Positions 12,497 to 63,979 of a stretch of DNA of 64,000 nucleotides are shown here, piece by piece. Both the position numbers and the translations under genes were made by a program. This DNA comes from a virus (lineage: Duplodnaviria; Heunggongvirae; Uroviricota; Caudoviricetes), in the IMG/VR virus record IMGVR_UViG_3300035698_032497; one strand, written 5' to 3'. How positions within the stretch are numbered: the first letter of the stretch is position 1; each line of letters opens with the position of its first letter. The notes beneath the pieces are model-generated. The model did not search any database, was not told where the DNA came from, and was given only the letters and a program-made list of their open reading frames with translations.

Positions 12497-12525
12497 TTGC
12501 TACTGACAGTGGCAGGTGATAGGTT
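12497..12525 (+). promoter_or_regulatory. class-A promoter TTGCTA-17-(TG)ATAGGTT
   Basis: TTGCTACTGACAGTGGCAGGTGATAGGTT, 31 nt before the ArdC-like ATG. Confidence 0.6.
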
Positions 12526-12556
12526 TATTTCACCTCAACCGGACAGGAGAATCACC

Positions 12557-26662: not shown

Positions 26663-26750
26663 GTGCCTGGGTGTCGGAGCTGGTATACGAGCTGGCGTCA
26701 AATCCCAGTGACCGCAAGGTCGTGGGGGTTCGAGTCCCCCCTCAGGCACC
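26663..26750 (+). tRNA. atypical type-II tRNA, probably tRNA-Leu(CAA)
   Basis: 7-bp acceptor GTGCCTG/CAGGCAC, T-loop GGTTCGAGTCC, long variable hairpin. The anticodon region GCGTCAAATCCC has a mismatch next to the loop and resembles the tRNA-Sec UCAAAUCC arm. Confidence 0.5.
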
Positions 26751-26756
26751 ATCCGT

Positions 26757-26848
26757 GGGTAAGTGGCATCTGCTGGTATAGGGTGCGTCGGGCTGTAAAC
26801 CCGGAGCCAATGTGGCCGTCGGGGGTTCGATTCCCTCCTTACCCACCA
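26757..26848 (+). tRNA. tRNA-Tyr(GTA), type II
   Basis: Acceptor GGGTAAG/CTTACCC, anticodon loop CTGTAAA, long variable arm, CCA encoded. Confidence 0.8.
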
Positions 26849-26918
26849 TTTTTTCGTTGATCGTACAGCGTAGCGCTCCGAGCTCTGGCTCGTTGAGCGA
26901 CGTTGTGCGTACACATCA

Positions 26919-27006
26919 GGAGACGTGGTCGAGCGGCCGAAGGCACCCGCTTGGAAAGCGGGTAGGGCAACCACCCTCGCGAGTTCGAATCTCGCCGTCT
27001 CCGCCA
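26919..27006 (+). tRNA. tRNA-Ser(GGA)
   Basis: GGAGACG…CGTCTCC-G-CCA; anticodon loop TTGGAAA; long variable arm. Confidence 0.85.
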
Positions 27007-27100
27007 TTTCATGCGGACCGGGCCCGCAGCCAACAGCCAACAGCCAACAGCCAACAGCTGCTCGCTGCGCTCGCTGGCCATAGACACTGTTCGTTTTTCT
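27007..27100 (+). repeat. spacer repeat A containing (CAACAGC)x4 heptad tandem repeat (27031..27058)
   Basis: Re-used with divergence at 27544..27646 between the second Ser-tRNA pair. Confidence 0.7.
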
Positions 27101-27188
27101 GGAGGCGTGGCCGAGCGGCTGAAGGCACTCGCCTGCTAAGCGAGTACGGTTCACACCGTCGAGGGTTCGAATCCCTCCGCCTCTTCCA
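27101..27188 (+). tRNA. tRNA-Ser(GCT)
   Basis: Anticodon loop CTGCTAA; acceptor GGAGGCG/CGCCTCT; CCA encoded. Confidence 0.85.
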
Positions 27189-27202
27189 TTTTCGAGTTTA
27201 GC

Positions 27203-27280
27203 GGGACTGTAGCTCAGACGGTAGTAGCACCGGACTGAAAATCCGGCATGACGGCGGTTCGATTCCGCCCGGTCCCACCA
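27203..27280 (+). tRNA. tRNA-Phe(GAA)
   Basis: Anticodon loop CTGAAAA; T-loop GGTTCGATTCC. Confidence 0.8.
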
Positions 27281-27284
27281 CCTT

Positions 27285-27442
27285 CGCGGACGAGAGAGAC
27301 TTCGTGTGAGTTCAGAATACTGTAGGTTCGAGTCCTACTTCCCCCACCACCATGGGGGAATGGCGGAATGGCAGACGCAACCGACTTGAAATCGGTCTCA
27401 TTCGAGACGACTCTATTACACTCCCTCACTCTCTTGTTCGCG
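27285..27442 (+). ncRNA. circularly permuted tRNA-Ser(UGA)-like element closed by a 14-bp terminal helix (Y-RNA-like)
   Basis: Order is T-arm GTAGG-TTCGAGT-CCTAC, acceptor 3' TTCCCCC, loop ACCACCAT, acceptor 5' GGGGGAA, D-arm GCG…CGC, anticodon arm ACCGA-CTTGAAA-TCGGT. Flanks CGCGGACGAGAGAG and CTCTCTTGTTCGCG pair over 14 bp with 2 G-U. Confidence 0.45.
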
Positions 27443-27455
27443 ACACCTTTCCTAC

Positions 27456-27543
27456 GGAGACGTGGTCGAGCGGCCCAAGGCACTCGCTTCGAAAGCGAGA
27501 GGGGCAACCACCCCCGAGGGTTCGAATCCCTCCGTCTCCGCCA
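27456..27543 (+). tRNA. tRNA-Ser(CGA)
   Basis: Anticodon loop TTCGAAA. Confidence 0.85.
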
Positions 27544-27646
27544 TCTCATGCGGACCTTTGGTCGGCAGCCAACAGCCGACAGCCTACAACCAACAGCCGA
27601 CAGCTGCTCGCTGCGCTCGCTGGTCATGGACATTGTTCGTTTTTCT
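27544..27646 (+). repeat. spacer repeat A' with degenerate CAACAGC/CGACAGC heptads
   Basis: About 85% identical to 27007..27100. Confidence 0.7.
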
Positions 27647-27734
27647 GGAGGCGTGGCCGAGCGGTCGAAGGCGATCGCCTTGAAAGCGGTAGAGGCTCAC
27701 CCCTCCGAGGGTTCGAATCCCTCCGCCTCCTCCA
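27647..27734 (+). tRNA. tRNA-Ser(TGA)
   Basis: Anticodon loop CTTGAAA. Confidence 0.85.
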
Positions 27735-27738
27735 TTTC

Positions 27739-27815
27739 GTCGACGTACCCAAGTGGCTCAAGGGCTCCGGTTGCAAACCGGGTGTTCGTCGGTTCGAATC
27801 CGGCCGTCGACTCCA
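27739..27815 (+). tRNA. tRNA-Cys(GCA)
   Basis: Anticodon loop TTGCAAA; acceptor GTCGACG/CGTCGAC. Confidence 0.85.
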
Positions 27816-27829
27816 TCTCGTTTTTTTGT

Positions 27830-27915
27830 GGGCCTGTGGTGAAATGGCAGACACGCGGGGTTTAGGACCCCGTCTCCTCTCGGAGGTGAGGGTTCGAATC
27901 CCTCCGGGCCCACCA
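27830..27915 (+). tRNA. tRNA-Leu(TAG)
   Basis: Anticodon loop TTTAGGA; long variable arm. Confidence 0.85.
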
Positions 27916-28072
27916 TCGCTCCAAGGAGCGTACGCAAGTCAGGCGATGTAGGAACACTGGTTCAGGGAAGTCTGGACCAGGGCTGGCTCCCTGGGAGTCC
28001 CGGGGAAACGGGCTGCTGGCGTCCGAGGTTCTATCGGCGAGGCCCGCGTCGGCCTGGACGGCGCACTCTTTC

Positions 28073-28160
28073 GGCCCCGTGGTGAAGCTGGCAGACACGC
28101 TGCGTTCAGGGCGCAGTTCCCCTTGTGGGAGGCCCGGTTCGAATCCGGGCGGGGCCACCA
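28073..28160 (+). tRNA. tRNA-Leu(CAG)
   Basis: Anticodon loop TTCAGGG; long variable arm. Confidence 0.85.
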
Positions 28161-28173
28161 TTTTCTTGTTTTT

Positions 28174-28262
28174 GCGCCCGTGGTGAAGCTTGGCAGACAC
28201 GCGAGGTCGAGGGCCTCGTTCCCTTTACGGGAGGGCCGGTTCGAATCCGGCCGGGCGCACCA
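28174..28262 (+). tRNA. tRNA-Leu(GAG)
   Basis: Anticodon loop TCGAGGG; long variable arm. Confidence 0.85.
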
Positions 28263-28276
28263 TTTTCAACCTTCAT

Positions 28277-28346
28277 ATCGGCCGTCCAGGGGCACTGCAG
28301 GTCTCCAAAACCCGCGGGCAAAGTTCGATTCTTTGGGCCGGTGCCA
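28277..28346 (+). pseudogene. degenerate tRNA-like element (pseudo-tRNA)
   Basis: Acceptor ATCGGCC/GGCCGGT-G-CCA and T-arm CAAAG-TTCGATT-CTTTG are present, but there is no canonical D/anticodon arm. Confidence 0.3.
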
Positions 28347-32708: not shown

Positions 32709-35048
32709 CTACTCTTCGTCACCGAGCTCGTCGAGCTCACTGAGCTGGTCCTCGATTTCGCGGAGCACGGCTGCTGCGGTCTTGACTTTCGCGATCTTGG
32801 TGGCCGGCGCTCTGCCCTTGGAGACTTTCCGCAGCGTGCGGCGCTGGTCTCGGTCCAGGGTGAGCTCTCCGGTTCGGCTCATGGCGGTCATGGGCACCGT
32901 GATGTCCGGGTGCAGCCAGATGTGCTCTGGAGAGCTGGTGACCTCACCGATGACGTCTTCTTCTTCGACGCGCTCCTCGTCGAGCTTCTTCTTCTGGGTA
33001 ACAGTGACCAGGACCTTGGCCTTCAGCATCGCGTCCAGCGCGCTATGCTTGGAGCTGGCGATGGTGGTGCCGTAGCCTCTATCTTCGTCGGGGGCATGGA
33101 CATCCCATCTCGGGATCTGTATCCAGTCGTGGGATCCGTTGGCCACGATGGTCATGAACGATTCCGAGTACTCGGGATCCTGACTGTCTTCGTACAGCTC
33201 GAGGACCCAGTCGCCGCCATGGCTTTCGAAGTCGTTGTAGCTCACCTTTCCGATGACACCGTCGATGGACTCGGAGAGGAACTCCAGCTCGGCCTTGACG
33301 TTGGCCCAGGTCTCTTGTCCATACACGCTGGCGTCATGCTCGTTGAAGCACTCCAGCATCCACTTTGCGAACCCGAAGACCGTGAGCTCGTCCTTGTCGA
33401 CCTCGGCCATGTACTCGATGAGGTCTTGACCATGGCGGTCGGTGATGTACTTCTCCAAGAAGCTTGCGAGCTTCTTCTCCCTGCGCCCGTGCTCCTCGAA
33501 CTCCTCGTCCCCCCATTCTTCTTCATCGTAGCCATGGTCGCTGTAGAAGCTGCGCAGACCGCAGTCGTTGATGGCGGCTTCGAAGTTGTCGATGTTTTCG
33601 TAGGTCTCCTGGTACCAGGACATATTGCAGTCGAGCTCTTCCTGGATGGATAGGGACTTTTGGTTTTGCTCGAGGGTCCACTTGCTTTTCTCGTCTTCTC
33701 CGTCATCTTCGGGGATTTCGTTCTCACGCTTCATCCACTCGGGGATGGCACCGCCCGGAATGGAGAGTGGAAGCGACGGGCCTCCCAGGGCCCAGACGTG
33801 ATCGTCGAGATCGGTGTCCAGCAGGCTATCCAAGAACCACTTCATGCGCTTCGCGGCGGTCTTGTCCGTGACCTGGTGGTTGTCGTGACCCTTGAGGTCC
33901 ACGACCATGGTCCACTCGCCACGGATCGGGATTTCGCCGTCGTGGATTTTCGAGATCTTCTCTTTCTTCCACCCGTAGGGCGGGTACCAGTTCTCGTCGT
34001 CGTTCTTCTCGGTCAGCATCAGGTCGTCGCCGACATGGTTTTCGTCGATGCTCAGGGCCGCGGTACCCCATGGTTTGCCGCTGTCGTCTCGGATGGAGAA
34101 GATGATCTCGGTCCCCTCCCTGACGTAGCTCCAGTGGCCACCGACGCAGTGGCCCATGCTCTTGCCCTCTTCCTCGCACTCCTTGGCCGTCACCAGCCTG
34201 TCGATGTGCCAGCCATCGGGCCAGGTCACGACGGTGACCCCGGGGGTGACGGGGGACTTGTAGTCGGCTTGACCGATGAACTGCTGGTGCCATTCATGGC
34301 TTCTGCGCTGGACTTCTCCGATGCTCATGCCCATGATGTTCGGCCGCTCTTCCTCGATCCAGTCGATGACGTCGGGCATGCCGCCAGGTCTGTAGCCTTC
34401 CTCTTGCAAGCCGACGCGTTCGTCGAAGCCGATCCAGTCGATGTCGTTGGCGACGGGATAGCCGCGGAAGAACTCGTGGAAGTCGCCGTGACCGCTCAGG
34501 CCGTGGGGAGGAATGTAGCCCTGAGGGGCGTTTTCGTCGTGCCAGCGAACGATCCTGGCGCACTCCGAAGCCAGCCATGGAATCCACGGGTCCCAGCGGG
34601 AGTTGGCACCTGGTTCGGGTATGATGTCGGGGTGAGGCATCCAGTCTACCGGAAGCTTGACCCACGAGTTCCCTCTTCCGTGGCTCGCGTTCCATACGGA
34701 TCTGACCGCGAGTCCGCGGCGTTTGCCTGCGTGCTCGGCCATCTGTGCATGGTAGTGGGTTGGGTTTTGAATCAGGTGGCTGTCGATCTTCCATATCAGT
34801 CGGTTTCGATCTGGGATCGTGAACGCCTGGGCGTCATCCAGCAGCTCCCACAGCAGGTAGCGGGCCCTGGCGTCTTGCAGCTGCGAGAACGCCCACAGCA
34901 GCCTGGTGCGAGTCCCGGAGCGCGCCGTGGGTGCCCCACGCAGGCCGGACAAGTTCACCAGCCGGTGCCAGGAGCCCTTCATGCGTCCCTGGCCGGGAGC
35001 GAGGACGAGGGCGGAGATGATGGAGAGGGCTTGCATCGGGCGTAGCAT
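32709..35048 (-). CDS. large hypothetical protein, GHC-motif paralog family
   Basis: 779 aa; …WPDGWHIDRLV…EEGKSMGHCVGGHW…IFSIRDDSGKPWGTAAL…. Confidence 0.7.
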   Translation of the reverse strand: MLRPMQALSIISALVLAPGQGRMKGSWHRLVNLSGLRGAPTARSGTRTRLLWAFSQLQDARARYLLWELLDDAQAFTIPDRNRLIWKIDSHLIQNPTHYHAQMAEHAGKRRGLAVRSVWNASHGRGNSWVKLPVDWMPHPDIIPEPGANSRWDPWIPWLASECARIVRWHDENAPQGYIPPHGLSGHGDFHEFFRGYPVANDIDWIGFDERVGLQEEGYRPGGMPDVIDWIEEERPNIMGMSIGEVQRRSHEWHQQFIGQADYKSPVTPGVTVVTWPDGWHIDRLVTAKECEEEGKSMGHCVGGHWSYVREGTEIIFSIRDDSGKPWGTAALSIDENHVGDDLMLTEKNDDENWYPPYGWKKEKISKIHDGEIPIRGEWTMVVDLKGHDNHQVTDKTAAKRMKWFLDSLLDTDLDDHVWALGGPSLPLSIPGGAIPEWMKRENEIPEDDGEDEKSKWTLEQNQKSLSIQEELDCNMSWYQETYENIDNFEAAINDCGLRSFYSDHGYDEEEWGDEEFEEHGRREKKLASFLEKYITDRHGQDLIEYMAEVDKDELTVFGFAKWMLECFNEHDASVYGQETWANVKAELEFLSESIDGVIGKVSYNDFESHGGDWVLELYEDSQDPEYSESFMTIVANGSHDWIQIPRWDVHAPDEDRGYGTTIASSKHSALDAMLKAKVLVTVTQKKKLDEERVEEEDVIGEVTSSPEHIWLHPDITVPMTAMSRTGELTLDRDQRRTLRKVSKGRAPATKIAKVKTAAAVLREIEDQLSELDELGDEE

Positions 35049-46645: not shown

Positions 46646-47686
46646 TTACACCTCGAACTGTTCAGCCTCATGGTAGGCACGGCGGCGGTCCCAGCCAGTG
46701 GCGATGACCATGGAGGCGTACATGACAGCGTCGCCATCGCGCACGATCTGACCGATCCATTGGTCGCTCTTGGCGGTCTGAAGCGTGAACGGGCTCAGCT
46801 GCTGGTCGGTCTCGACGGCCATCGGGATGGCGACCATGTCGCGGACCAGAGCCCGGGCGCGTTCGTCCTCTTCGGCCTCTACGCTCTCGAGCATGCGCTC
46901 GAGGTCCTCGAGGCTGTCAGCGTCGTCGAACAGGGGGACGCGCGTGGCGGGTGGATCTTGGCCAACCATGACGCTCTTGCGCTTCTGTACGGCCACGGCC
47001 TGTGCGCCGTAGCAGCTGCGGATCAGGGGCTCCCACACCGCAGTCCACCAGGCACGTGACGGGGCGCGCTCGAGTCCGACCACCACGCCGTCCAGCAGAA
47101 CGATGGCTCCGATCTGGTCTGGGACCAGCTCGAACTGGGCCACGAAGCTGTCCAGCTGCTCGGCGTAGCGCTCGAAGAACAGCTTCATGTTGCCGCGGTC
47201 GGGGATTCCGGCCTCGGTGTTGAACTGCCCGATGGAGTCCCACATGCGGCTGTAGCCATCGTAGCTGCTGCCCTTGTGGCGCTTCGAGGTGGCCGTCTCG
47301 CGCAGCCCCAGCGGAAGGATGGCGAGCCGGTGCTGCCCGATTGAGATGGTGTTGGGCTGGTTCGCCTCGATGCAGACTGCGTTGTCGAAGTGCGCTCTGC
47401 TCTTCTTGGCTACCAGGCCAGCTCCCACCATGGCGTGGTCCTGGGTCCGCTGCTTGGTCATGTAGGCAGCGTGCGCCGGGATGATCATCGGCTTGTCGCT
47501 CTTGTTCTCGGCGATGATGGTGCCATAGGTGGCGGTGCCGACGTAGGCTTCGGTGGGGACCTGGAAGCGGTCGTCTTCGAGCTCGAGATCGGTGAGGATC
47601 AGGGGCACGACCTGCATCAGGCCGACGGACTGCATGCGGCCGGCGCGGCAGCCACGCAGGGCGTCACGGGCGGTGAGGGTGTTCAT
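46646..47686 (-). CDS. hypothetical protein (same operon as the Ro60-like gene)
   Basis: 346 aa. Confidence 0.55.
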   Translation of the reverse strand: MNTLTARDALRGCRAGRMQSVGLMQVVPLILTDLELEDDRFQVPTEAYVGTATYGTIIAENKSDKPMIIPAHAAYMTKQRTQDHAMVGAGLVAKKSRAHFDNAVCIEANQPNTISIGQHRLAILPLGLRETATSKRHKGSSYDGYSRMWDSIGQFNTEAGIPDRGNMKLFFERYAEQLDSFVAQFELVPDQIGAIVLLDGVVVGLERAPSRAWWTAVWEPLIRSCYGAQAVAVQKRKSVMVGQDPPATRVPLFDDADSLEDLERMLESVEAEEDERARALVRDMVAIPMAVETDQQLSPFTLQTAKSDQWIGQIVRDGDAVMYASMVIATGWDRRRAYHEAEQFEV

Positions 47687-47695: not shown

Positions 47696-48229
47696 CTACC
47701 AGGACAGGGTGGTGCGGTGGATAATGGGGTGGGTGCTGGGATCGATGCCGAGCTCGCCGAGCACGACGATGAGGCTGTTCGTCAGCATGGTGATGTGCTG
47801 GATGGGGACGTCGTGGTTCGTGTTGTCCCAGTTGTAGTTGTTGGCGCTGGAGATCTCGAACCCGATCCACAGCTCTTCATCGTCACGCTCCGACCTGTCG
47901 CGGTGAGGGATGAAGAACATAGCGCCTTGGAAGCCGATGTCTTGATCCATCGAACACCAGTCACGGATGGCCGTCATGGGGTCCATCGGCTCGTCATGGT
48001 CGGTGTGTTCACAGGTGAGGGCTTCTGGAAGGGCGTCGATCAGGCTCTCTCTCCAGGCGCGCCTGGAGACGCTCTCGAGGCGCTTTACGTCTTCGATCCC
48101 GCAGACAGGACAGAATGCGCAGCCGGCGGCTTCGGGGTGTTCACATGGGGTGGTCTTGGTTTTTTTGATCTGGACGATGTTCTCGGGCTCAACCGGAAGC
48201 AAGATCCAGGATTGTGCGGCGTATCCCAT
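47696..48229 (-). CDS. hypothetical protein with Cys4 zinc-ribbon
   Basis: CAFCPVCG; immediately downstream of the Ro60-like gene. Confidence 0.5.
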   Translation of the reverse strand: MGYAAQSWILLPVEPENIVQIKKTKTTPCEHPEAAGCAFCPVCGIEDVKRLESVSRRAWRESLIDALPEALTCEHTDHDEPMDPMTAIRDWCSMDQDIGFQGAMFFIPHRDRSERDDEELWIGFEISSANNYNWDNTNHDVPIQHITMLTNSLIVVLGELGIDPSTHPIIHRTTLSW

Positions 48230-48232: not shown

Positions 48233-49951
48233 TCAGTCCCCCAGCAGCGCTGCGGCCTTCTGCGCTACCAGCGCCAGGCCTTGGGCGGGGTCGCTCTCCA
48301 GCAGGCCGCGGACCAGGGACAGGCCCAGGGCTGTGGGATCGGAGACCGGCATGGTGGTGGCGATGCCGGGGGCGAGTGGACGTACGCCGCCCTTCTCGCC
48401 GGCCATGACGGGGTTGAACTGGAAGACGGGGGTGTCGATACCCATGCGGCGCACCGCGGCCAGCACCTCGGCCACACGCCCTGCGGGGGCGTTCTCGTAG
48501 CCGTCGGAGACGATGAACAGCACGTCTGGGGTGGCTCCTGGCGCGAGATCGGAGTCGTAGCGGAGGGCCTTGATGACGGCGGAGGCGATGGAGGTGTCTC
48601 CGGCTGGCCGGACGAGCTCGACAGGGAAGCTGTCGGCTTCCGCATCGGGTTCACCACCACAGTAGAACGTCTTGGCGCTCTCGGTGCAGGTCGCCATCAG
48701 GGTGTCGCGCATAGACAGGGCGATGGACATCGGGCGCAGCTTCTGCTCATCCGATCCGGCCATGGATTCGGAGCAGTCTACGACGATGGCCACGTGTTCG
48801 TAGCTCATGCCGAGCACGGAAGCGGCAGTGTGCGCCTTGCGGGCGATGGCCGCGGCGACGCGCTCGTCCAGCCCGACCTCGAAGGCGTGGACCCACAGCT
48901 GCACCAGGCCGAGCTTCATCGGATCGAACTCGACCTCGATGCCGGCGGACTTGGCGCGCTTCTGGACAGCACCCCGCTGACGCTGGGTCATGGAGCCGCC
49001 CTTTCCCTTGGCGTTGGTGCGGCTGGTCAGCGCGATGACGTCGTCCTTGGAGACGGTGGGGTGGTAGTGGCCCCGGATGCCCTCGAGCACCTCGGGGGGC
49101 AGCACGGTGCCCTTGGCCAAGTCGAGCCTGGCCTCGTAGAAAGCGAGGAACAGACCGGAGCGCCAGGTGTGGTGCTCCAGCTTGCGGCCGGCGATGAAGG
49201 CGAGGGCCTCGGCGAGACGGACGGGCTTGTCGATCCCGGTGTCGAGGAAGATGCCGGTGTCGACCGGATGCATTGCGCTGATGAACTGTACGAAGGCTCT
49301 CTCTCGAGGATCGCTGGGCGGGACCTGTTCCGCAGCCAGGTTGTCCAGCCAGGTCGCGGCCGAGCTGCAGATCACGCCGAACTCACGGCTCCCGAGGGCG
49401 TGCTTCAGCGCGCTCTTGATCTTGCCGCGGTACTTGACGCTCCACCAGTGCAGCTTGGTAGAGCCGATGATGGCCCCGAGGATGACCTTGCGCGTCCGCT
49501 TGTTGTTGACGCGTCGCTTGCGCAGCTCGTCGAACAGCTTGAACATGCGCTGGGGCGGCAGCTGGCTGATGAGCTTGCTGATCACCATCCACTCATCGGG
49601 GTTTACGACGTTGGTGACAGAGCTGTCGATGGGAGAGGACAGCAGGCGCAGCAGGGCCTGGCTCTTGGCGCGGTCCAGGGCCCCGGGCATGGCGGCCAGC
49701 GCGCCGTAGATGCGGCGATCGACCATGAAGGCCCGGTCGTGGACCAGGGCCTCGGCGGCATCCTGCTCTTCGCGGGTGTTGTAGGCGGTGGCGCGGCCGG
49801 TGCCGGTGCCGATGAGGTCCATCCAGGACAGGATCGCCGTGCCGGCGGCGACGGCGTTTCCGTTGGACTGGCCGGAGACCAGGGCCTGTGGTACATCGCT
49901 CAAAGGCCTGTCGAGCAGGCCCAGGGCGAGGGTCGAGATTTCGGTGTTCAT
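48233..49951 (-). CDS. rsr: TROVE/Ro60-like (Rsr-like) protein with C-terminal vWA domain
   Basis: C-terminal vWA with MIDAS DCSESM (DxSxS) in the last third, as in Ro60; alpha-helical N-terminal ~380 aa; two tRNA-like RNAs immediately upstream; start at the ATG with a GGAGGA RBS. Confidence 0.5.
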   Translation of the reverse strand: MNTEISTLALGLLDRPLSDVPQALVSGQSNGNAVAAGTAILSWMDLIGTGTGRATAYNTREEQDAAEALVHDRAFMVDRRIYGALAAMPGALDRAKSQALLRLLSSPIDSSVTNVVNPDEWMVISKLISQLPPQRMFKLFDELRKRRVNNKRTRKVILGAIIGSTKLHWWSVKYRGKIKSALKHALGSREFGVICSSAATWLDNLAAEQVPPSDPRERAFVQFISAMHPVDTGIFLDTGIDKPVRLAEALAFIAGRKLEHHTWRSGLFLAFYEARLDLAKGTVLPPEVLEGIRGHYHPTVSKDDVIALTSRTNAKGKGGSMTQRQRGAVQKRAKSAGIEVEFDPMKLGLVQLWVHAFEVGLDERVAAAIARKAHTAASVLGMSYEHVAIVVDCSESMAGSDEQKLRPMSIALSMRDTLMATCTESAKTFYCGGEPDAEADSFPVELVRPAGDTSIASAVIKALRYDSDLAPGATPDVLFIVSDGYENAPAGRVAEVLAAVRRMGIDTPVFQFNPVMAGEKGGVRPLAPGIATTMPVSDPTALGLSLVRGLLESDPAQGLALVAQKAAALLGD

Positions 49952-50039
49952 GGCGTCCTCCATCATCATGGAGGGACAGTGGGGCCGAGCTGGGGTGCCG
50001 AGGGGTCGTGAACAAAGAGCGGTTTTGACACCGCGACTT

Positions 50040-50125
50040 CCTGGGTGTGAACCAAGCGCTCTACTCTGAGCTATCTTTTCTGAAACCTCGGCCGAGCTCT
50101 CGGCCCTTGACTGTACCTCCGTTGA
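50040..50125 (-). ncRNA. degenerate tRNA-Val(CAC)-like structure inside the rsr 5' leader
   Basis: Minus-strand GGTTTCAGAAAAGA-TAGCTCAGAGTAGAGCG-CTTGG-TTCACAC-CCAGG…, followed by the GGCCGAGAGCTCGGCC hairpin. Confidence 0.3.
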
Positions 50126-50150
50126 CGCTTTCTTCTCGTGGTGTTCGTTC

Positions 50151-50186
50151 GCTACTACTGGTAGCAAGGAGAAGGGTGCACGTCAA
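50151..50186 (-). promoter_or_regulatory. class-B promoter (minus): TTGACG-17-TACCAG + hairpin GCTAC-CAGTA-GTAGC
   Basis: Minus strand reads CTCTTGACGTGCACCCTTCTCCTTGCTACCAGTAGTAGC, about 200 nt upstream of the rsr ATG. Confidence 0.5.
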
Positions 50187-50298
50187 GAGGAAAGATGGGA
50201 CGCTGCGGGGGGGGTCAAGGGATCTTCTGTGGTGCCCGGTTTCTGGATCCGGGGACCGATCCTGTGATCTTCGGAAGGGGTCAAGAGACAGGGCGGGG

Positions 50299-50417
50299 GG
50301 CCGAAGCGGTAGCTTTTGGAGACAATGCTCTACCGCTGAGCTATCTGCCCCGAGGGGCAGAACGGGGATCGAACCCGCGACCTTCGTCGTGATGTACTGG
50401 AGCTTCGGTGTAGCTCC
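50299..50417 (-). ncRNA. Y-RNA-like tRNA mimic (YrlA-type module)
   Basis: Minus strand has GACGA-AGGTC-[GCGGG TTCGATC CCCGT]-TCTGCCCC-TCGG-GGGCAGA-TA-[GCTC AGCGGTA GAGC]-A-TTGTC. Acceptor stem is capped by a tetraloop, there is no anticodon loop, and GACGA/TTGTC forms the connector stem. Confidence 0.45.
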
Positions 50418-50471
50418 TATCTCTCGAGGGGTTCACGTAGAGGGGCTGGGGTAGGGGGTCGAGGGGGTAGT

Positions 50472-50549
50472 TGGTGAGTGAAACGGGACTCGAACCCGCG
50501 ACCTCCGGTGCGTGACACCGGCGCTCGTGACCTACTGAGCTATTCATTC
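50472..50549 (-). tRNA. tRNA-Val(CAC)
   Basis: Minus strand GAATGAA-TA-GCTC…GAGC-CCGGT-GTCACGC-ACCGG-AGGTC-GCGGG-TTCGAGT-CCCGT-TTCACTC-A-CCA; one A·C mismatch in the acceptor stem. Confidence 0.6.
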
Positions 50550-50854
50550 TGAACCGTCGACAAAGTTCCCAGCACCTGCTGCGTGATCCTCCCCATGGAA
50601 GGCGATCGGAGTGGCCGGCGAGCGGGATGCTCGCCGGCCGTTGACCGGCTTCTTCCTGGGGGGGGAAGATGGTATATTCAAAGAAGAAAAGGGTAGAGGC
50701 CGGGTGTGGGAGCGTCGCTTATGGGGTTGACCATTAGCAATGAATCCTGGAGCAACGCAGCAGCTCCGACCGTCTCGCACACGAACTTACAATACTCTAC
50801 GGAGCGTGTCAACGGCATCGTCGACTTTTCTTTGATATTTCCCGATCCGTCGTT

Positions 50855-52198
50855 GTGGTCGGTTTCGGTTATGATGATGGAACGATGATCGCCACCCAGC
50901 TCATCACCTCACTCTGCTCAGCTCCTGACGGGGCACGGCGTGGGGTACTGCACGAGCTCGAGAACCTCGCCAACGTGGAGGACGTCAGGCTGACGAGCAG
51001 GCCGCTGCGAAGGGTCGATGCCCGGTTCGAGTGGCTCGAGGCCCAGTTCGGTCCCTGCGTTCGCCATGTGACCGAGGCGCTACTGATCAAGCTCGGGTAC
51101 ATGGTCTTCTCGAACGACTATCCCAAGCTGGCGCCTCTGATTCCATGGATCGGGCGAGAGATCCACAGGCTGCGGAAGAGCTTCCCAGAGGCCTGGGTCT
51201 TCCTCGATGCTGCCTGTGCACTGGACGTGGCCTGGGACGATGATGGCGGGATCTTGGCGACCGTGCTCGATGCGGTCCCTCGCTTGGTCGAGGACAACCG
51301 CACGGTGATCGACTGGTACATGGAGCTGGACCGCCGCCCGGACATCCTTCGTATGGACATGAAGGACGCCTTCGACGATGCCCATGCCTGGCATGAGCAG
51401 CTGCGGGTCAGCGCAGAGAAGGGGATGCCGCGCCCGGGCGTAGTCGTGCTCAACATGGGTCCGCTGCTCGAGAGCGGAAGAGCGGATGGATGGACCCTTC
51501 AGGAGCTGGACACCCGCAAGCGCATCGAGGTCGAGGGCAAGACCATGGGCCACTGCGTCAGCGGTCTGCACTACTGGGAGGGGGTCAGGGATGGTCGGTT
51601 CCGCATCTTCTCCTTGAGGGACCCGGCTGGCCGCCCATGGGCGACGCTGCAGGTGGGCATTACAGGAGACAGTCCGGAGATCATCCAGGTCAAGGGTCGT
51701 GGCAATGTCAATGTCGCCAACTATGAGTCCGGAAAGCTCGATGGGCTGGATGATGGCGCCACCTGCATCATGATCCGGGATCTTGCGGTCATCGCTGCGG
51801 TTTTCCTCCTGACAGGCTCCACGACGATAGGGAGCGAGGAGCTCGATCTGGTCAAGGAAGCGGGAGACATGCGGATGTCTGTCGGTCTCTTCGGTCAGCC
51901 ATGGCCGGAGCTGGATGGCGAGGACGACGAAGACGAGCACGACGAGCACACGTTCCCCCAGGTCTTGGCGTGTCCAGCGTGCGGTAACGTCAACAGCGAC
52001 GATATCAGCGCCTACGTCAACACGGGGATGAGGATCCACATCTCTGCCATGGACGGTCAGCGCAGCAGGACCGTGTCCCTCTCCGCTGGAGACGGCTACG
52101 AGTGGGGAGCTCACGAGTTGAAGCTGGAGTGTCTTCAGTGTGCGCACGAGTGGGATTTCCCGGTGGACGACATCGCGCACACCTACGATGCCTGGTAG
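50855..52198 (+). CDS. large hypothetical protein, GHC-motif paralog family, C-terminal zinc ribbon
   Basis: …DGWTLQELDTRKRIEVEGKTMGHCVSGLHYW…RIFSLRDPAGRPWATLQ…; CPACG…CLQC. Confidence 0.65.
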   Translation: MVGFGYDDGTMIATQLITSLCSAPDGARRGVLHELENLANVEDVRLTSRPLRRVDARFEWLEAQFGPCVRHVTEALLIKLGYMVFSNDYPKLAPLIPWIGREIHRLRKSFPEAWVFLDAACALDVAWDDDGGILATVLDAVPRLVEDNRTVIDWYMELDRRPDILRMDMKDAFDDAHAWHEQLRVSAEKGMPRPGVVVLNMGPLLESGRADGWTLQELDTRKRIEVEGKTMGHCVSGLHYWEGVRDGRFRIFSLRDPAGRPWATLQVGITGDSPEIIQVKGRGNVNVANYESGKLDGLDDGATCIMIRDLAVIAAVFLLTGSTTIGSEELDLVKEAGDMRMSVGLFGQPWPELDGEDDEDEHDEHTFPQVLACPACGNVNSDDISAYVNTGMRIHISAMDGQRSRTVSLSAGDGYEWGAHELKLECLQCAHEWDFPVDDIAHTYDAW

Positions 52199-52788: not shown

Positions 52789-52865
52789 GTCCCCGTAGCT
52801 CAGATGGATAGAGCACCTGATTGCGGATTAGGAGGCCCCAGGTTCGAGTCCTGGCGGGGACGCCA
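52789..52865 (+). tRNA. tRNA-Arg(GCG)
   Basis: Anticodon loop TTGCGGA; acceptor GTCCCCG/CGGGGAC. Confidence 0.75.
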
Positions 52866-52873
52866 TTTTTAGA

Positions 52874-52950
52874 GCCCTGGTAGCTCAGCTGGATAGAGCG
52901 CTGGCCTTCGGCACCAGATGTTGGGGGTTCGAGTCCCTCCCAGGGCGCCA
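52874..52950 (+). tRNA. tRNA-Arg(TCG)
   Basis: Anticodon loop CTTCGGC. Confidence 0.8.
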
Positions 52951-52955
52951 TCTTC

Positions 52956-53032
52956 GTCCCCATAGCTCAGCTGGACAGAGTGCTGGTTTCCGGTACCAGA
53001 GGTTCCAGGTTCGAGTCCTGGTGGGGACGCCA
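52956..53032 (+). tRNA. tRNA-Arg(CCG)
   Basis: Anticodon loop TTCCGGT. Confidence 0.85.
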
Positions 53033-53050
53033 TCTTCTTCACCCTTTTTT

Positions 53051-53127
53051 GGGGCATTGGTCTAGCGGTCAAGGACACCGGCCTGTCACGTCGGAAGCCA
53101 CGAGTTCGAATCTCGTATGCCCCGCCA
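53051..53127 (+). tRNA. tRNA-Asp(GTC)
   Basis: Anticodon loop CTGTCAC. Confidence 0.85.
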
Positions 53128-53142
53128 TTTTGTACGTTCACC

Positions 53143-53218
53143 GGGCCTATAGCTCAACTGGGAGAGCATCGGACTCTTAATCCGAAGGTCGAAGGTTCGA
53201 TCCCTTCTGGGCCCACCA
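53143..53218 (+). tRNA. tRNA-Lys(CTT)
   Basis: Anticodon loop CTCTTAA. Confidence 0.85.
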
Positions 53219-53270
53219 CTTCTCCTCTTACGTCTCGAGCGCTTCTTCCTCTCATTGCGAAGGAGCTTAG

Positions 53271-53340
53271 TTGGGTTCGAATCCCATGGCCGGGCACCGC
53301 TGGCAACCACCCGCGACCCGGTTTGTGAGCCCTGGATAGG
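53271..53340 (+). pseudogene. tRNA-like fragment (T-arm TTGGG-TTCGAAT-CCCAT then CCTGGATAGG D-loop-like)
   Basis: T-arm remnant is followed by a D-arm-like segment; possibly another permuted or decayed tRNA. Confidence 0.2.
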
Positions 53341-53363
53341 CCTAAAGCGCTCCCCCTTTTCGT

Positions 53364-53440
53364 GCCCCAGTAGGCTAGCGGTCCAGGCCGTCGCCCTCTC
53401 ACGGCGAAGCTCGCGAGTTCGAATCTCGTCTGGGGTACCA
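53364..53440 (+). tRNA. tRNA-Glu(CTC)
   Basis: Anticodon loop CTCTCAC; acceptor GCCCCAG/CTGGGGT. Confidence 0.85.
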
Positions 53441-62641: not shown

Positions 62642-62718
62642 CGGGGTGTAGCGCAGTCTGGTAGCGCGCCTGCTTCGGGAGCAGGAGGTCCGCGGTTCGA
62701 GCCCGCGCACCCCGACCA
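62642..62718 (+). tRNA. tRNA-Pro(CGG)
   Basis: Anticodon loop TTCGGGA. Confidence 0.85.
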
Positions 62719-62744
62719 TTTCAGACTACAGTGAAGATGACGAT

Positions 62745-62820
62745 GGGGGCGTAGCTCAACTGGGAGAGCATCTGCTTTGCACGCAGAAGGTCGAGGGTTC
62801 GATCCCCTTCGCCTCCACCA
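62745..62820 (+). tRNA. tRNA-Ala(TGC)
   Basis: Anticodon loop TTTGCAC; G3·U70. Confidence 0.85.
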
Positions 62821-62830
62821 TCATCGTCAT

Positions 62831-62907
62831 CCGGGTATAGCGCAGTCTGGTAGCGCTCCAGCTTTGGGAGCTGGATGTCACAGGTTCGAATCCTGTTACC
62901 CGGACCA
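62831..62907 (+). tRNA. tRNA-Pro(TGG)
   Basis: Anticodon loop TTTGGGA. Confidence 0.85.
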
Positions 62908-62912
62908 TCTAC

Positions 62913-62964
62913 GGGGCCCTCCCCGTTCTGTCCATGGAACGGATCGGGACACCAAGAGGGCCCC
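62913..62964 (+). other. 9-bp inverted repeat GGGGCCCTC…GAGGGCCCC (hairpin) between tRNAs
   Basis: Perfect 9-bp arms with a 34-nt loop. Confidence 0.5.
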
Positions 62965-62975
62965 TCCAGTTTCCC

Positions 62976-63048
62976 GGGGGCGTAGCTCAGTTGGTAGAGC
63001 ATCGGCCTTTTAAGCCGTGGGTCACGGGTTCGATCCCCGTCGCCCCCA
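62976..63048 (+). tRNA. tRNA-Lys(TTT)
   Basis: Anticodon loop CTTTTAA; CCA not encoded. Confidence 0.8.
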
Positions 63049-63068
63049 CCTCTCTTTCATCGTTTTGC

Positions 63069-63145
63069 TGATGCGTGGTCGAAATGGCAAAGACGCCGGG
63101 TTCTGGCCCCGGAGGTTTCAGGTTCGAATCCTGGCGCATCAACCA
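63069..63145 (+). tRNA. tRNA-Gln(CTG)
   Basis: Anticodon loop TTCTGGC; U1-A72 as in bacterial tRNA-Gln. Confidence 0.8.
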
Positions 63146-63260
63146 TGGAGCTCTCCGTCGGAGCGAGAGACAAGACCCGATGGGGACGCCCTGACGGTTG
63201 AACTGTAGGGAGGACGTTATGCCTTTCGAGGGCCAATGTCGTCACCCATCCGGCAATCAT

Positions 63261-63350
63261 CGGGCAGTAGCGCAGCATGGTAGCGCACCAGTTCGGGGTA
63301 CTGGGGGTCGCGGCTCCTGCGGAGCGCGTTGAGTCCCGCCTGCCCGACCA
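63261..63350 (+). tRNA. tRNA-Pro(GGG)-like with unusual extra hairpin in the variable region
   Basis: Anticodon arm CCAGT-TCGGGGT-ACTGG, then a GCGGCTCC-TGC-GGAGCG hairpin before the T-arm. Confidence 0.4.
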
Positions 63351-63354
63351 TTTT

Positions 63355-63540
63355 TCAGATTGTGATGCGGATCCTCATCTGTTCGTCGGTGACGAGCAGA
63401 GATCTCTTCATGGCATCCGACTCACGATTCGCGGACAGCTCGATCTCTCGTATGACTCTCCGGCCGTCGTCGGATCGTAGCCAGGCGATGATGCGGTTCT
63501 CTGCCTCTTTGCGCTTCTCTTTGGTCATCACCATGACCAT
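63355..63540 (-). CDS. small basic/acidic protein encoded antisense within tRNA array 3
   Basis: MVMVMTKEKRKEAENRIIAWLRSDDGRRVIREIELSANRESDAMKRSLLVTDEQMRIRITI; GC-rich codon third positions; GAGGTG RBS. Confidence 0.35.
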   Translation of the reverse strand: MVMVMTKEKRKEAENRIIAWLRSDDGRRVIREIELSANRESDAMKRSLLVTDEQMRIRITI

Positions 63541-63552
63541 ACCACACACCTC

Positions 63553-63628
63553 GAGGGCATAGCTCAGCCGGTAGAGCACCAGAGTGCCACTCTGGATGTC
63601 ACGGGTTCGACCCCCGTTGCCCTCTCCA
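63553..63628 (+). tRNA. tRNA-Gly(GCC)
   Basis: Anticodon loop GTGCCAC. Confidence 0.85.
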
Positions 63629-63635
63629 TTTTCTC

Positions 63636-63712
63636 GCCCGCGTAGCTCAGTTTGGCAGAGCAGGGCTTTCGTAAAGCTCGGGTCAGCGGTTCGATTCCGC
63701 TCGTGGGCCCCA
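63636..63712 (+). tRNA. tRNA-Thr(CGT)
   Basis: Anticodon loop TTCGTAA. Confidence 0.85.
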
Positions 63713-63725
63713 TCTCTTTATCTTC

Positions 63726-63804
63726 GCCGCCGTAGCTCAGTTGGCATTAGAGCACGTCATTGGTAATGACGAGGTCACGGGTTCGAGTCCCGTCGGTGGC
63801 TCCA
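63726..63804 (+). tRNA. tRNA-Thr(GGT)
   Basis: Anticodon loop TTGGTAA. Confidence 0.85.
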
Positions 63805-63819
63805 CTTCACAACGATTAT

Positions 63820-63896
63820 GGTGGCCGTAGTTCAGCAGGTAGAACACCGGATTGTGGGTCCGGTTGTCGCGAGTTCGAGTCTCGTCGGTCACCCCA
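63820..63896 (+). tRNA. tRNA-His(GTG) with encoded G-1
   Basis: Anticodon loop TTGTGGG; extra 5' G; discriminator C. Confidence 0.85.
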
Positions 63897-63903
63897 TTTC
63901 AGT

Positions 63904-63979
63904 GCGTGAGTAGCTCAGTTGGTAGAGCCTCGGCCTTCCAAGCCGTTGGTCGCGAGTTCGAGTCTCGTCTCACGCTCCA
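63904..63979 (+). tRNA. tRNA-Gly(TCC)
   Basis: Anticodon loop CTTCCAA. Confidence 0.85.

What the first reader, a model, noticed from the sequence alone, without database searches (positions are those of the whole stretch)
48233..50553. Ro60/TROVE-vWA (Rsr-like) gene preceded by a tRNA-Val, a YrlA-type tRNA-mimic RNA and a tRNA-like leader
The 573-aa minus-strand ORF has a C-terminal vWA domain with a MIDAS DCSESM motif in the last third, as in Ro60. Its N-terminal ~380 aa are helical.

Directly upstream on the same strand are three RNA elements:
- A tRNA-Val(CAC) at 50472-50549.
- A 120-nt element at 50299-50417 with the domain order T-arm, acceptor 3', TCGG tetraloop, acceptor 5', D-arm. 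A connector stem GACGA/TTGTC replaces the anticodon arm. This is the architecture reported for bacterial YrlA-type Y RNAs, which are tRNA mimics bound by Rsr.
- A degenerate tRNA-Val-like fold inside the ~200-nt leader of the Ro60-like gene, between the class-B promoter at 50151-50186 and the ATG.

A phage-encoded Ro60/Y-RNA module would be unusual and may tie into the phage's large tRNA complement.
Basis: partly seen in the sequence, partly recalled or inferred. Interest (0 to 1): 0.85.

Follow-up and report, generated by a model that had tools for sequence, protein, structure and literature searches.

The report
Divergent Ro60-like gene with tRNA-mimic RNAs
A very large phage carries a gene for a ring-shaped RNA-binding protein that matches the Ro60 autoantigen only in 3D fold, preceded by three or four small tRNA-containing RNAs and followed by a predicted enzyme gene; the same three-part module recurs in many large phages and bacteria and does not appear to have been described.

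Summary
The 572-aa minus-strand ORF (49951..48233) has a helical N-terminal ~380 aa and a C-terminal vWA domain with an intact MIDAS motif. The tRNA-Val(CAC), the YrlA-type permuted tRNA mimic and the tRNA-like leader are all present.

New points:
- The family has about 770 clusters, in large phages, Planctomycetes, Myxococcota and actinomycetes.
- The gene is followed by an ARPP-1 gene in 82 of 85 loci.
- It is preceded on the same strand by one to five RNAs that share a covarying stem/internal-loop/stem scaffold absent from Rfam. This scaffold was found in 62 of 85 loci, and all 128 hits are on the gene strand.
- The "tRNA-Val" (E1) and the leader tRNA-like element (E3) are members of this RNA family.
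- The YrlA-type element (E2) lacks that scaffold and is absent from the closest relative.

Phage Ro60/Y-RNA modules are already known. This is a new variant, and its function is inferred, not shown.

The parts
50698..50772 (-). E0: candidate short scaffold-only Y-like RNA (marginal). Outer stem GGUCGG/CCGGCC, inner stem GUUGC/GCGAC.
   Evidence: Second-best hit of the scaffold-only model R2 in the window, 15.3 bits, E 0.11, directly 5' of E1 on the same strand. Not testable in relatives.
50443..50575 (-). E1: scaffolded tRNA. The family scaffold is outer stem GCUGGG/CCCAGC, AACUUU loop, inner stem GUCGA/UCGAC, then ..CCCCUAC. It encloses the complete tRNA-Val(CAC).
   Evidence: Neither model contains any window sequence. 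R1 gives 63.8 bits, E 6e-16, full model, and is the top hit in the window, above all true tRNAs. R2 (scaffold only) gives 24.8 bits, E 3e-4, also the top hit. nhmmer with the 5' motif hits 50570-50549.
50472..50549 (-). tRNA-Val(CAC) module inside E1. It has one A.C mismatch in the acceptor stem, discriminator A, and an encoded CCA.
   Evidence: ARAGORN; Rfam tRNA 55 bits; sequence read.
50297..50417 (-). E2: YrlA-type circularly permuted tRNA mimic (T-arm, 7-bp acceptor hairpin, D-arm). It has the terminal stem CCGAAGC/GCUUCGG carrying CGAA, and lacks the family scaffold.
   Evidence: Rfam YrlA 36.9 bits, E 3e-6, below the gathering score of 69. Single-sequence fold z -3.1, but the MFE does not form the D-arm or the long-range stems. 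No R2 hit. Absent from L089.
50151..50186 (-). Conserved promoter-like block: TTGACG, 17 nt, TACCAG.
   Evidence: Unique in the window. Conserved with the same spacing in L089. Not called by the sigma-70 scan. Function unverified.
49966..50120 (-). E3: leader Y-like RNA. Nested stems GGAGG.UACAGU/ACUGU.CCUCC, GGGCCGAG/CUCGGCCC and GCCGAGG/CCUCGGC enclose a degenerate tRNA-Val-like cloverleaf (50011-50080). It ends about 15 nt before the ATG, and its 3' CCUCC is complementary to the Shine-Dalgarno GGAGG.
   Evidence: R1 47.5 bits, E 3e-11, full model at 50106-49982. Rfam tRNA 42.5 bits. MFE -72.9 kcal/mol, z -3.6. Seven compensatory pair changes against L089. Scaffold-only R2 is weak (9 bits, E 6).
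48233..49951 (-). Ro60-like protein, 572 aa. The helical (HEAT-ring-like) domain is residues 1-380 (49951-48812). The vWA domain with MIDAS DxSxS..T..D is residues ~384-572.
47696..48229 (-). 177-aa ORF with a CxxC..CxxC motif, inserted between the Ro60-like and ARPP-1 genes. Lineage-specific.
   Evidence: No match in any of the 85 related loci. Present on the identical JGI contig L087. No significant Pfam hit.
46646..47686 (-). ARPP-1 domain protein, 346 aa. It is the conserved downstream partner.
   Evidence: Pfam PF20208 ARPP-1, E 4e-27. A homolog lies immediately downstream of the Ro60-like gene in 82 of 85 loci.

Best explanation
The locus encodes a Ro60-type ribonucleoprotein system built from a highly diverged branch of the Ro60 fold. 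The protein combines a HEAT-repeat helical domain of the Ro60 ring type with a MIDAS-competent vWA domain.

Upstream, on the same strand, lie its presumed cognate Y-like RNAs. Each has a conserved terminal stem / asymmetric internal loop / inner stem scaffold, which is the presumed protein-binding module by analogy with the Ro-binding stem of Y RNAs. This scaffold holds a tRNA or tRNA mimic. In this phage the array is E0 (short), E1 (a complete tRNA-Val), E2 (a YrlA-type permuted mimic with its own CGAA-bearing stem) and E3. E3 sits in the mRNA leader, and its 3' strand can alternatively pair with the ribosome-binding site.

The invariant downstream partner is ARPP-1, a predicted enzyme with conserved Cys and Gln residues that has been proposed to act on ribose moieties.

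The inferred mechanism follows Rsr-Y RNA-PNPase and rsr-yrlBA-rtcBA. The scaffold docks the RNA on the ring. The tRNA-like module recruits or mimics substrates of tRNA-handling factors. RNA 3' ends threaded through the ring are presented to ARPP-1. The system would thus serve tRNA or structured-RNA surveillance, repair or counter-defence, which fits its frequent embedding in horizontally transferred tRNA arrays.

Shown: the fold, the gene pairing, and the RNA family with its covariation and strand/position association. Inferred: protein-RNA binding, the role of ARPP-1 and the physiological role.

For: MIDAS residues are conserved.

Partner: ARPP-1 lies downstream in 82 of 85 loci.

RNA family:
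- The 5' motif gives 121 hits on the gene strand against 4 on the other, and 93 of 116 lie within 700 nt upstream.
- Scaffold structure: 12 pairs, 11 with compensatory changes; 90.6% of cells paired against 67.5% in shuffles (0/500); slid controls give 26-54%.
- The scaffold-only CM gives 128 hits at E<=0.01 in 62 of 85 loci, all on the gene strand.
- Type-(a) alignment: 22 of 26 pairs show compensatory changes.

Window elements, scored with models that exclude window sequences: E1 63.8 and 24.8 bits, E3 47.5 bits. E3 stems covary with L089.

The module also occurs in a chromosomal, tRNA-free setting next to cspA/groEL in Yinghuangia, so the core is RNA + Ro-like + ARPP-1.

Precedents: Y RNAs encoded within 4 kb on the same strand as Ro60, with tRNA-like domains (PMC4201824); phage phiLo Ro60 binds upstream Yrl RNAs (PMC12135203).

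Against: Nothing shows that the protein binds these RNAs. The conserved scaffold motif (GGRACU..GUCAN..CAG / ..UGAC..CCUUAC) differs from the known Ro-binding motifs (GGUCCGA, GNCGAAN0-1G).

E1 is a good tRNA with an encoded CCA and is the only Val tRNA in the window, so it may simply be a tRNA gene with a structured leader and trailer.

E2 is not conserved in the nearest relative. E0 and the E3 scaffold score weakly with the scaffold-only model.

In this window the large tRNA arrays lie on the opposite strand, unlike the 367 of 367 same-strand tRNAs in other loci.
Confidence: 0.6

Rival explanations
1. The scaffold is a pre-tRNA or operon processing and stability signal rather than a protein-docking module. 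In this view a leader-trailer duplex directs RNase III/E/P/Z cleavage of long tRNA-array transcripts, or acts as a cis-regulatory leader. The Ro-like/ARPP-1 genes are merely co-transcribed cargo at the end of tRNA arrays.
For: Many elements enclose complete, ARAGORN-callable tRNAs. All 367 flanking tRNAs are co-oriented with the gene. E1 carries CCA and is the only tRNA-Val in the window. E3 lies in the mRNA leader, and its CCUCC strand is complementary to the Shine-Dalgarno GGAGG.
Against: Scaffold RNAs persist where there are no tRNAs at all: the actinomycete loci have two elements each, next to cspA/groEL. Many copies carry no tRNA module (28 short elements). Ordinary tRNAs inside the same arrays lack the scaffold, matching only R1 positions ~29-100. 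Anticodons differ (Lys, Leu, Asn) between near-identical orthologous elements in Planctomycetes, which argues against selection for decoding. The association is with the gene pair, not with arrays.
Confidence: 0.2
2. The protein is functionally a vWA adaptor or chaperone for ARPP-1 in a conflict (defence or anti-defence) system. Its helical domain only convergently resembles Ro60. The tRNA-like RNAs act as decoys or sensors for tRNA-targeting nucleases rather than as Y-RNA-type tethers.
For: ARPP and vWA proteins were both described as components of ARG-centred conflict systems, with vWA read as a peptide-binding chaperone (PMC9503650). No TROVE sequence signal was found. Foldseek sees only the vWA domain. 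The family is shared between jumbo phages and bacteria with a patchy distribution.
Against: The helical domain alone retrieves the three Ro60 structures as ranks 1-3, ahead of all generic HEAT/ARM proteins. The combination of domain order and upstream same-strand tRNA-mimic RNAs is exactly the Ro60 pattern. No ARG, Nudix, WYL or nuclease genes were seen in the neighbourhoods inspected.
Confidence: 0.15
3. E2 specifically is not a functional YrlA. It is the decayed junction of two tandem tRNA-Val-derived copies: the T-arm and 3' acceptor strand of one copy followed by the 5' acceptor strand and D-arm of the next.
For: The E1, E2 and E3 T-arm regions are near-identical (AGGUCGCGGGUUCGA..), so they are paralogs. 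E2 is absent from the 65%-identity relative, which keeps E1 and E3. The Rfam score is about half the gathering threshold. The MFE prefers an alternative GCGGUAG/CUACCGC pairing over the D-arm. E2 lacks the family scaffold.
Against: E2 has a perfect 7-bp acceptor hairpin closed by a 4-nt loop, intact T- and D-loop signature nucleotides, two flanking connector stems and a CGAA in the 5' strand of the terminal stem, as in canonical YrlA/Yrl RNAs (PMC4201824; PMC12135203). Its fold gives z -3.1. Permuted elements of the same architecture occur next to homologs elsewhere, with a covarying acceptor hairpin.
Confidence: 0.3

Closest known systems
Bacterial Rsr (Ro60) with YrlA/YrlB Y RNAs (Salmonella rsr-yrlBA-rtcBA; Mycobacterium smegmatis) - Chen et al. 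2014, PMC4201824; Rfam RF02553
   Same: A HEAT-ring-type helical domain plus a vWA/MIDAS domain. One to several ncRNAs are encoded just upstream on the same strand. Each RNA has a terminal stem module plus a tRNA-like module. The permuted T-arm/acceptor/D-arm order is seen in E2 and in type-(b) elements. The operon is coupled to an RNA-end-acting enzyme.
   Different: No TROVE sequence signature. The conserved RNA motif is different (GGRACU..GUCAN..CAG / UGAC..CCUUAC rather than GNCGAAN0-1G). Many RNAs hold a complete unpermuted tRNA. The partner enzyme is ARPP-1, not RtcB/RtcA. E2 scores 36.9 against a gathering score of 69 bits.
Deinococcus radiodurans Rsr-Yrn1-PNPase (RYPER)
   Different: No PNPase link is shown here. 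The sequence is unrelated at HMM level. The effector candidate is ARPP-1.
Phage Ro60 systems: Thermus phage phiLo phiRo60 with Yrl1/Yrl2 (PMC12135203; PDB 9L5Y/9KOP); mycobacteriophage Ro60 + YrlA (PMC4201824); ROT/TROVE in some jumbo phages (PMC7824862)
   Different: Those proteins are recognisable TROVE proteins. Their RNAs use the CGAA internal-loop motif. No ARPP-1 partner or scaffolded full tRNAs are reported for them.
ARPP-containing ARG-centred conflict systems (Iyer, Burroughs, Aravind et al. 2022, PMC9503650)
   Same: ARPP-1 domain protein (PF20208, E 4e-27). vWA proteins occur in those neighbourhoods.
   Different: That paper lists ARPP partners as ARG/R-P phosphatase, HIRAN, WYL and a deacetylase. 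It does not mention a Ro60-like protein or tRNA-like RNAs. No ADP-ribose-processing genes were seen next to this module.
Long horizontally transferred tRNA gene arrays (L-arrays; PMC8421152, PMC4758250)
   Same: In 20 of 85 loci the module is embedded in dense co-oriented tRNA arrays, up to 37 tRNAs in 9.4 kb. L-arrays are reported in the same phyla, and in Anabaena they are linked to translational stress and rtcB.
   Different: In the text I searched, those papers do not mention an associated Ro-like/ARPP-1 pair or scaffold RNAs. The module also exists without any array.

Membership tests
Ro60 / TROVE (Pfam PF05731) | TROVE domain detectable by sequence profile | tested here: not met
   No PF05731 hit at E<=1 for the window protein or for any of 55 homologs. 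A profile search of PDB sequences at E<=10 finds no Ro60. NCBIfam and PHROGs give nothing.
Ro60 / TROVE (Pfam PF05731) | HEAT-repeat helical domain of the Ro60 ring type | tested here: met
Ro60 / TROVE (Pfam PF05731) | C-terminal vWA domain with MIDAS motif capping the helical domain | tested here: met
Ro60 / TROVE (Pfam PF05731) | Closed ring with a central cavity that admits single-stranded RNA ends | not testable with these tools
Ro60 / TROVE (Pfam PF05731) | Cognate Y RNA(s) encoded nearby on the same strand and bound by the protein | tested here: inconclusive
   The genomic association is very strong. Binding itself is untested.
YrlA (Rfam RF02553) - for E2, 50297-50417 | Covariance-model score at or above the curated gathering threshold (69 bits) | tested here: not met
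   36.9 bits, E 3.2e-6, full model 1-114. The middle 7-bp stem is not formed.
YrlA (Rfam RF02553) - for E2, 50297-50417 | tRNA-like domain in the order T-arm, acceptor-like stem-loop, D-arm, joined to a 5'/3' terminal stem | tested here: met
   Read from the sequence and from the cmscan alignment. RNAfold reproduces the T-arm and the 7-bp hairpin but not the D-arm or terminal stems.
YrlA (Rfam RF02553) - for E2, 50297-50417 | GNCGAAN0-1G motif near the 5' end (PMC4201824) | tested here: inconclusive
   E2 has ACCGAAG. CGAA is present, but the first G is replaced by A.
YrlA (Rfam RF02553) - for E2, 50297-50417 | Conservation or covariation in homologous loci | tested here: not met
   The only close relative (L089) lacks E2. 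Analogous permuted elements in distant loci do show a covarying acceptor hairpin, but they carry the family scaffold, which E2 lacks.
tRNA (RF00005) - for E1 core, 50472-50549 | Cloverleaf scoring above threshold, with anticodon and acceptor end | tested here: met
   ARAGORN calls Val(CAC). Rfam gives 55 bits against a gathering score of 29. There is one acceptor mismatch, and discriminator A plus CCA are encoded. Aminoacylation is not testable.
   E1: R2 24.8 bits, E 3e-4, and R1 63.8 bits. E3: R1 47.5 bits over the full model, but R2 only 9 bits (E 6), so partial. E0: R2 15.3 bits, E 0.11, so marginal. E2: no hit.
ARPP-1 (Pfam PF20208) - for ORF 46646-47686 | Profile match above the curated cut-off | tested here: met
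   95.7 bits against a cut-off of 27, E 4.2e-27, covering profile positions 2-266 of 297.

The most novel reading that the evidence does not exclude
This would be a previously unrecognised and widespread Ro60-like/ARPP-1 ribonucleoprotein system (about 650-770 protein clusters at 50% identity). Its cognate RNAs would be tRNAs and tRNA mimics held in a dedicated protein-docking scaffold. It would act as a tRNA-pool surveillance, repair or anti-defence machine that travels with horizontally transferred tRNA arrays between jumbo phages and bacteria, with ARPP-1 as a new RNA-end-acting enzyme fed by the ring.
Probability: 0.35. Interest if true: 0.85.

Novelty: new variant of a known kind. Interest (0 to 1): 0.72.

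Why it matters
Ro60/Y-RNA particles are conserved from bacteria to humans, and their functions are still only partly understood. A second, sequence-invisible branch of the fold, with its own RNA scaffold and a different enzyme partner, would show the Ro60-plus-tRNA-mimic design to be more general than the TROVE family suggests.

It would give ARPP-1, a domain with no known activity, a concrete RNA context to test. It would also link Ro-type RNPs to the unexplained long tRNA arrays of jumbo phages and bacteria. These arrays are suspected to matter under translational stress and against tRNA-targeting defences.

The RNA family is well supported by covariation and absent from Rfam 15, so it could be curated immediately.

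Tried and rejected
- Sequence annotation of the protein gave nothing useful. Pfam, PHROGs, NCBIfam, and PDB phmmer and profile searches found no TROVE and only weak vWA hits.
- Megablast of the region against 50,697 phage records found no match. tblastn found one unannotated uncultured megaphage.
- A search for a canonical TROVE protein among the ten largest other ORFs of the window found none. They are DnaE, tail lysozyme, a methylase, ArdC/PolyVal, a helicase and PcfJ-like proteins.
- A first regex for 'T-arm followed by D-arm' mostly picked up adjacent tRNA genes. A loose motif-plus-stem scan was non-specific, with 612 hits on one strand against 413 on the other. Both were replaced by HMM and CM searches.
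- The permuted-looking element at window 27293-27434(+), seen in that loose scan, was not confirmed by R2 or by Rfam YrlA. I do not claim it.
- The Twister-sister hit inside the ORF (49803-49879, 23.9 bits, E 0.016) is judged to be chance.
- R1 'full-length' hits on ordinary tRNAs of the + strand arrays (for example 62731-62830) use the acceptor stem as a pseudo-scaffold, so they are not counted.
- I did not build a third CM for permuted elements. The MAFFT alignment of their 3' ends was poor, and it would add little beyond the Rfam YrlA result.
Full report
**1. What is at the coordinates**

The minus strand of 50780-46640 reads, 5' to 3', as follows: a run of structured RNA elements, a 572-aa ORF (ATG 49951, stop 48233), a 177-aa ORF (48229-47696) and a 346-aa ORF (47686-46646). 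The start at 49951 is preceded by GGAGG with a 5-nt spacer. Both are conserved in the closest relative.

ARAGORN finds 30 tRNAs in the window. Only one, tRNA-Val(CAC) at 50472-50549, lies on the minus strand.

An Rfam scan of 49800-50900 at permissive threshold gives:
- tRNA at 50475-50549: 55 bits.
- A second tRNA-like hit at 50011-50080: 42.5 bits, above the gathering score.
- YrlA (RF02553) at 50297-50409: 36.9 bits, E 3.2e-6, aligned over the full model but well below the gathering score of 69.

The only slips are the hairpin loop (CUCG, not TCGG) and the ORF length (572 aa, not 573).

**2. The protein**

Sequence methods do not see Ro60. Pfam returns only sub-threshold vWA hits (VWA_CoxE, E 0.015). 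PHROGs, NCBIfam and PDB sequence searches return nothing.

There are 85 homologs at 29-66% identity, all unnamed or labelled 'VWA domain-containing'. A profile of 55 of them still finds no TROVE in Pfam and no Ro60 among PDB sequences. The profile retrieves 771 clusters (50% identity) from 1.84 billion representatives, 434 of them at E<=1e-30.

An AF2 model from this alignment is confident (pLDDT 89.6, pTM 0.89). It has about 22 helices over residues 1-380, then an alpha/beta vWA domain.

There are caveats. Foldseek against the PDB recovers no Ro60 at all. Both models derive from one MSA. I could not inspect ring closure. The MIDAS residues (D392, S394, S396, T453, D483) are conserved.

I conclude that this is a Ro60-fold protein from a branch too diverged to be a recognisable TROVE-family member.

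**3. The conserved gene partner**

The 346-aa ORF is an ARPP-1 domain protein (PF20208, E 4e-27). A homolog of it lies immediately downstream of the Ro60-like gene in 82 of 85 related loci. These comprise 54 loci from GTDB genomes and 31 from IMG/VR.

The 177-aa ORF between the two genes is specific to this phage lineage.

ARPP was defined by comparative genomics as a probable enzyme with conserved Cys and Gln residues. It was proposed to act on ribose-containing substrates. Its listed partners are ARG/phosphatases, HIRAN, WYL and a deacetylase, not a Ro60-like protein (PMC9503650).

**4. The RNAs: a family-specific scaffold**

Upstream regions of the homologs show one to five tandem elements with a common plan:
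- A variable outer stem.
- A conserved 5' tract GG(R)ACU-N4-5-GUCAN-UUCAG.
- A variable central module.
- A 3' tract NUGAC-N4-CA-CCUUAC followed by the outer-stem complement.

The central module takes three forms:
- (a) A complete or near-complete unpermuted tRNA.
- (b) A permuted tRNA mimic (T-arm, acceptor hairpin, D-arm), which is the YrlA arrangement.
- (c) Nothing more than a small hairpin.

Evidence that the family is real and tied to the gene:
- A 23-nt HMM of the 5' tract gives 121 hits on the gene strand against 4 on the other strand. Of 116 placed hits, 93 lie within 700 nt upstream of the start.
- An alignment of 27 type-(a) elements gives 26 consensus pairs, 22 with compensatory changes.
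- An alignment of 28 short type-(c) elements gives 12 scaffold pairs, 11 compensatory. Of the cells, 90.6% are paired against 67.5% in shuffles (0/500). The covariation score is 0.643 against 0.221 (0/500). Register-shifted controls give 26-54% paired.
- Covariance models R1 (type a) and R2 (scaffold only) contain no window sequence.
- R2 finds 128 hits at E<=0.01 in 62 of 85 loci, every one on the gene strand.
- R1 finds 241 hits, again all on the gene strand.
- Rfam 15 has no family for the scaffold. Loci containing short elements gave only tRNA or weak YrlA hits at E<=0.01.

**5. How the window's elements fit**

- **E1.** R1's best hit in the whole window is 50575-50443(-), at 63.8 bits and E 6e-16 over the full model. 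It scores above every genuine tRNA, which match only the tRNA part of the model. R2's best hit is the same element, at 24.8 bits and E 3e-4. The 'tRNA-Val' is therefore embedded in the family scaffold: GCUGGG-AACUUU-GUCGA-CGGUUCAG-[tRNA-Val+CCA]-..-UCGAC-CCCCUAC-CCCAGC.
- **E3.** The leader element matches R1 over the full model at 47.5 bits (50106-49982). It folds into three nested helices around a degenerate Val-like cloverleaf (MFE -72.9 kcal/mol, z -3.6).
- **E3 in the relative.** In L089, the 65%-identical relative, the promoter-like block and E3 are conserved. There are seven compensatory pair changes in the helices and in the anticodon and T stems, while the anticodon loop UUCACAC is unchanged. 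E3's scaffold is atypical (AGCU for AACU) and scores only 9 bits with R2.
- **E0.** R2's second hit (15.3 bits, E 0.11) is a short candidate element at 50772-50698, directly 5' of E1.
- **E2.** The YrlA-type element is not hit by R2. It has its own terminal stem CCGAAGC/GCUUCGG containing CGAA, the motif of canonical YrlA/Yrl RNAs (PMC4201824, PMC12135203). It is absent from L089. Its single-sequence MFE forms the T-arm and acceptor hairpin but not the D-arm or long-range stems.
- **Paralogy.** E1, E2 and E3 share near-identical T-arm regions, so they are paralogs derived from a tRNA-Val.

**6. Context**

The window comes from a 385,225-bp metagenomic contig. It carries DnaE, a phage tail lysozyme and large tRNA arrays, consistent with a jumbo phage.

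The family occurs in many large IMG/VR contigs, and in Planctomycetes, Myxococcota and the actinomycetes Embleya and Yinghuangia.

In 20 of 85 loci the module is embedded in dense tRNA arrays, for example 37 tRNAs in 9.4 kb in Minicystis rosea. All 367 ARAGORN calls in the 85 loci are on the gene strand.

The actinomycete loci have no tRNAs at all. They still carry two scaffold RNAs, the Ro-like gene and ARPP-1, next to cspA and groEL. The core module is therefore RNA + Ro-like + ARPP-1, and the arrays are a frequent companion rather than a requirement.

Orthologous scaffolded tRNA modules in closely related Planctomycetes have different anticodons (CUU, UAG, AUU) on otherwise near-identical bodies. 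This argues that they are mimics rather than decoders. In this window the big arrays lie on the opposite strand.

**7. Mechanism**

Shown:
- A Ro60-fold protein.
- An invariant ARPP-1 partner.
- A structured RNA family that is strictly co-oriented and adjacent.

Inferred, by analogy with Rsr-Y RNA-PNPase, rsr-yrlBA-rtcBA and phiRo60-Yrl (PMC4201824, PMC12135203):
- The scaffold docks on the ring.
- The tRNA-like module engages tRNA-handling factors or mimics their substrates.
- ARPP-1 is the effector acting on RNA ends.

E3's position in the leader also allows translational feedback, because its CCUCC strand is complementary to the Shine-Dalgarno sequence. This is untested.

The rivals are set out with their evidence in the report sections: scaffold as a processing signal, vWA adaptor in a conflict system, and E2 as a decayed tRNA junction.

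**8. Novelty**

Phage Ro60/Y-RNA modules are established.

Three things appear new, within the literature I could search:
- A Ro60-fold family invisible to TROVE models.
- Its obligate pairing with ARPP-1.
- Its own covarying RNA scaffold that can hold whole tRNAs, often inside tRNA arrays.

I rate it a new variant of a known kind, with interest 0.72.

Noticed in passing
window 50784-50812 (-): A perfect -35 TTGACA (50812-50807), a 17-nt spacer and TAAGTT (50789-50784) lie about 12 nt upstream of E0. This is a possible promoter for an E0-E1-E2 transcript, divergent from the PcfJ-like gene at 50855(+). The sigma-70 scan does not call it because the -10 matches only 3 of 6 positions.
   Followed up: partly
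window 27293-27434 (+): Inside the + strand tRNA array there is a T-arm with acceptor 3' strand and ACCA, then CCAU, then an acceptor 5' strand, a D-arm and a Ser-like (UGA) anticodon arm, flanked by AGAGAG/CUCUCU. It looks like a permuted tRNA or two tRNA fragments. R2 and Rfam YrlA do not confirm it (only a 25-bit tRNA hit).
   Followed up: partly
window 47696-48229 (-): A 177-aa ORF with a CxxC..CxxC (zinc-ribbon-like) motif is inserted between the Ro60-like and ARPP-1 genes. It is found only in this phage lineage, and in none of the 85 related loci.
   Followed up: partly
L003-L013, L017, L020 (Planctomycetes), about 300 nt upstream of the gene: Orthologous scaffolded tRNA modules with near-identical bodies carry different anticodons (Lys CUU, Leu UAG, Asn AUU). 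This suggests the anticodon is not under decoding constraint.
   Followed up: partly
L088 (Yinghuangia soli) 5164-10693: In actinomycetes the module sits in the chromosome directly after cspA and groEL (Cpn60), with no tRNA genes nearby. This hints at a stress-response setting.
   Followed up: no
L071 8376-9022; L076 6677-7223: In some phage loci the tandem scaffold RNAs (three or four copies, mixing types a, b and c) lie downstream of the ARPP-1 gene rather than upstream of the Ro-like gene.
   Followed up: no
window 50855-52198 (+) and 32712-35048 (-): Two PcfJ-like proteins. Together with an ArdC-N/PolyVal metallopeptidase protein at 12371-13861(+), these are conjugative-element-type genes in a contig that otherwise looks like a jumbo phage (DnaE at 144-3704, tail lysozyme at 6308-7774).
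   Followed up: no
window 49803-49879 (-): A weak Rfam Twister-sister ribozyme hit (23.9 bits, E 0.016, gathering score 34) lies inside the Ro60-like coding sequence. It is probably chance.
   Followed up: no
window 3 tRNA arrays (26665-28346, 52789-53440, 62642-63979, all +): The 29 tRNAs on the + strand include no Val, Ile, Met or Asn. The only tRNA-Val in the window is the scaffolded one on the minus strand (E1).
   Followed up: no
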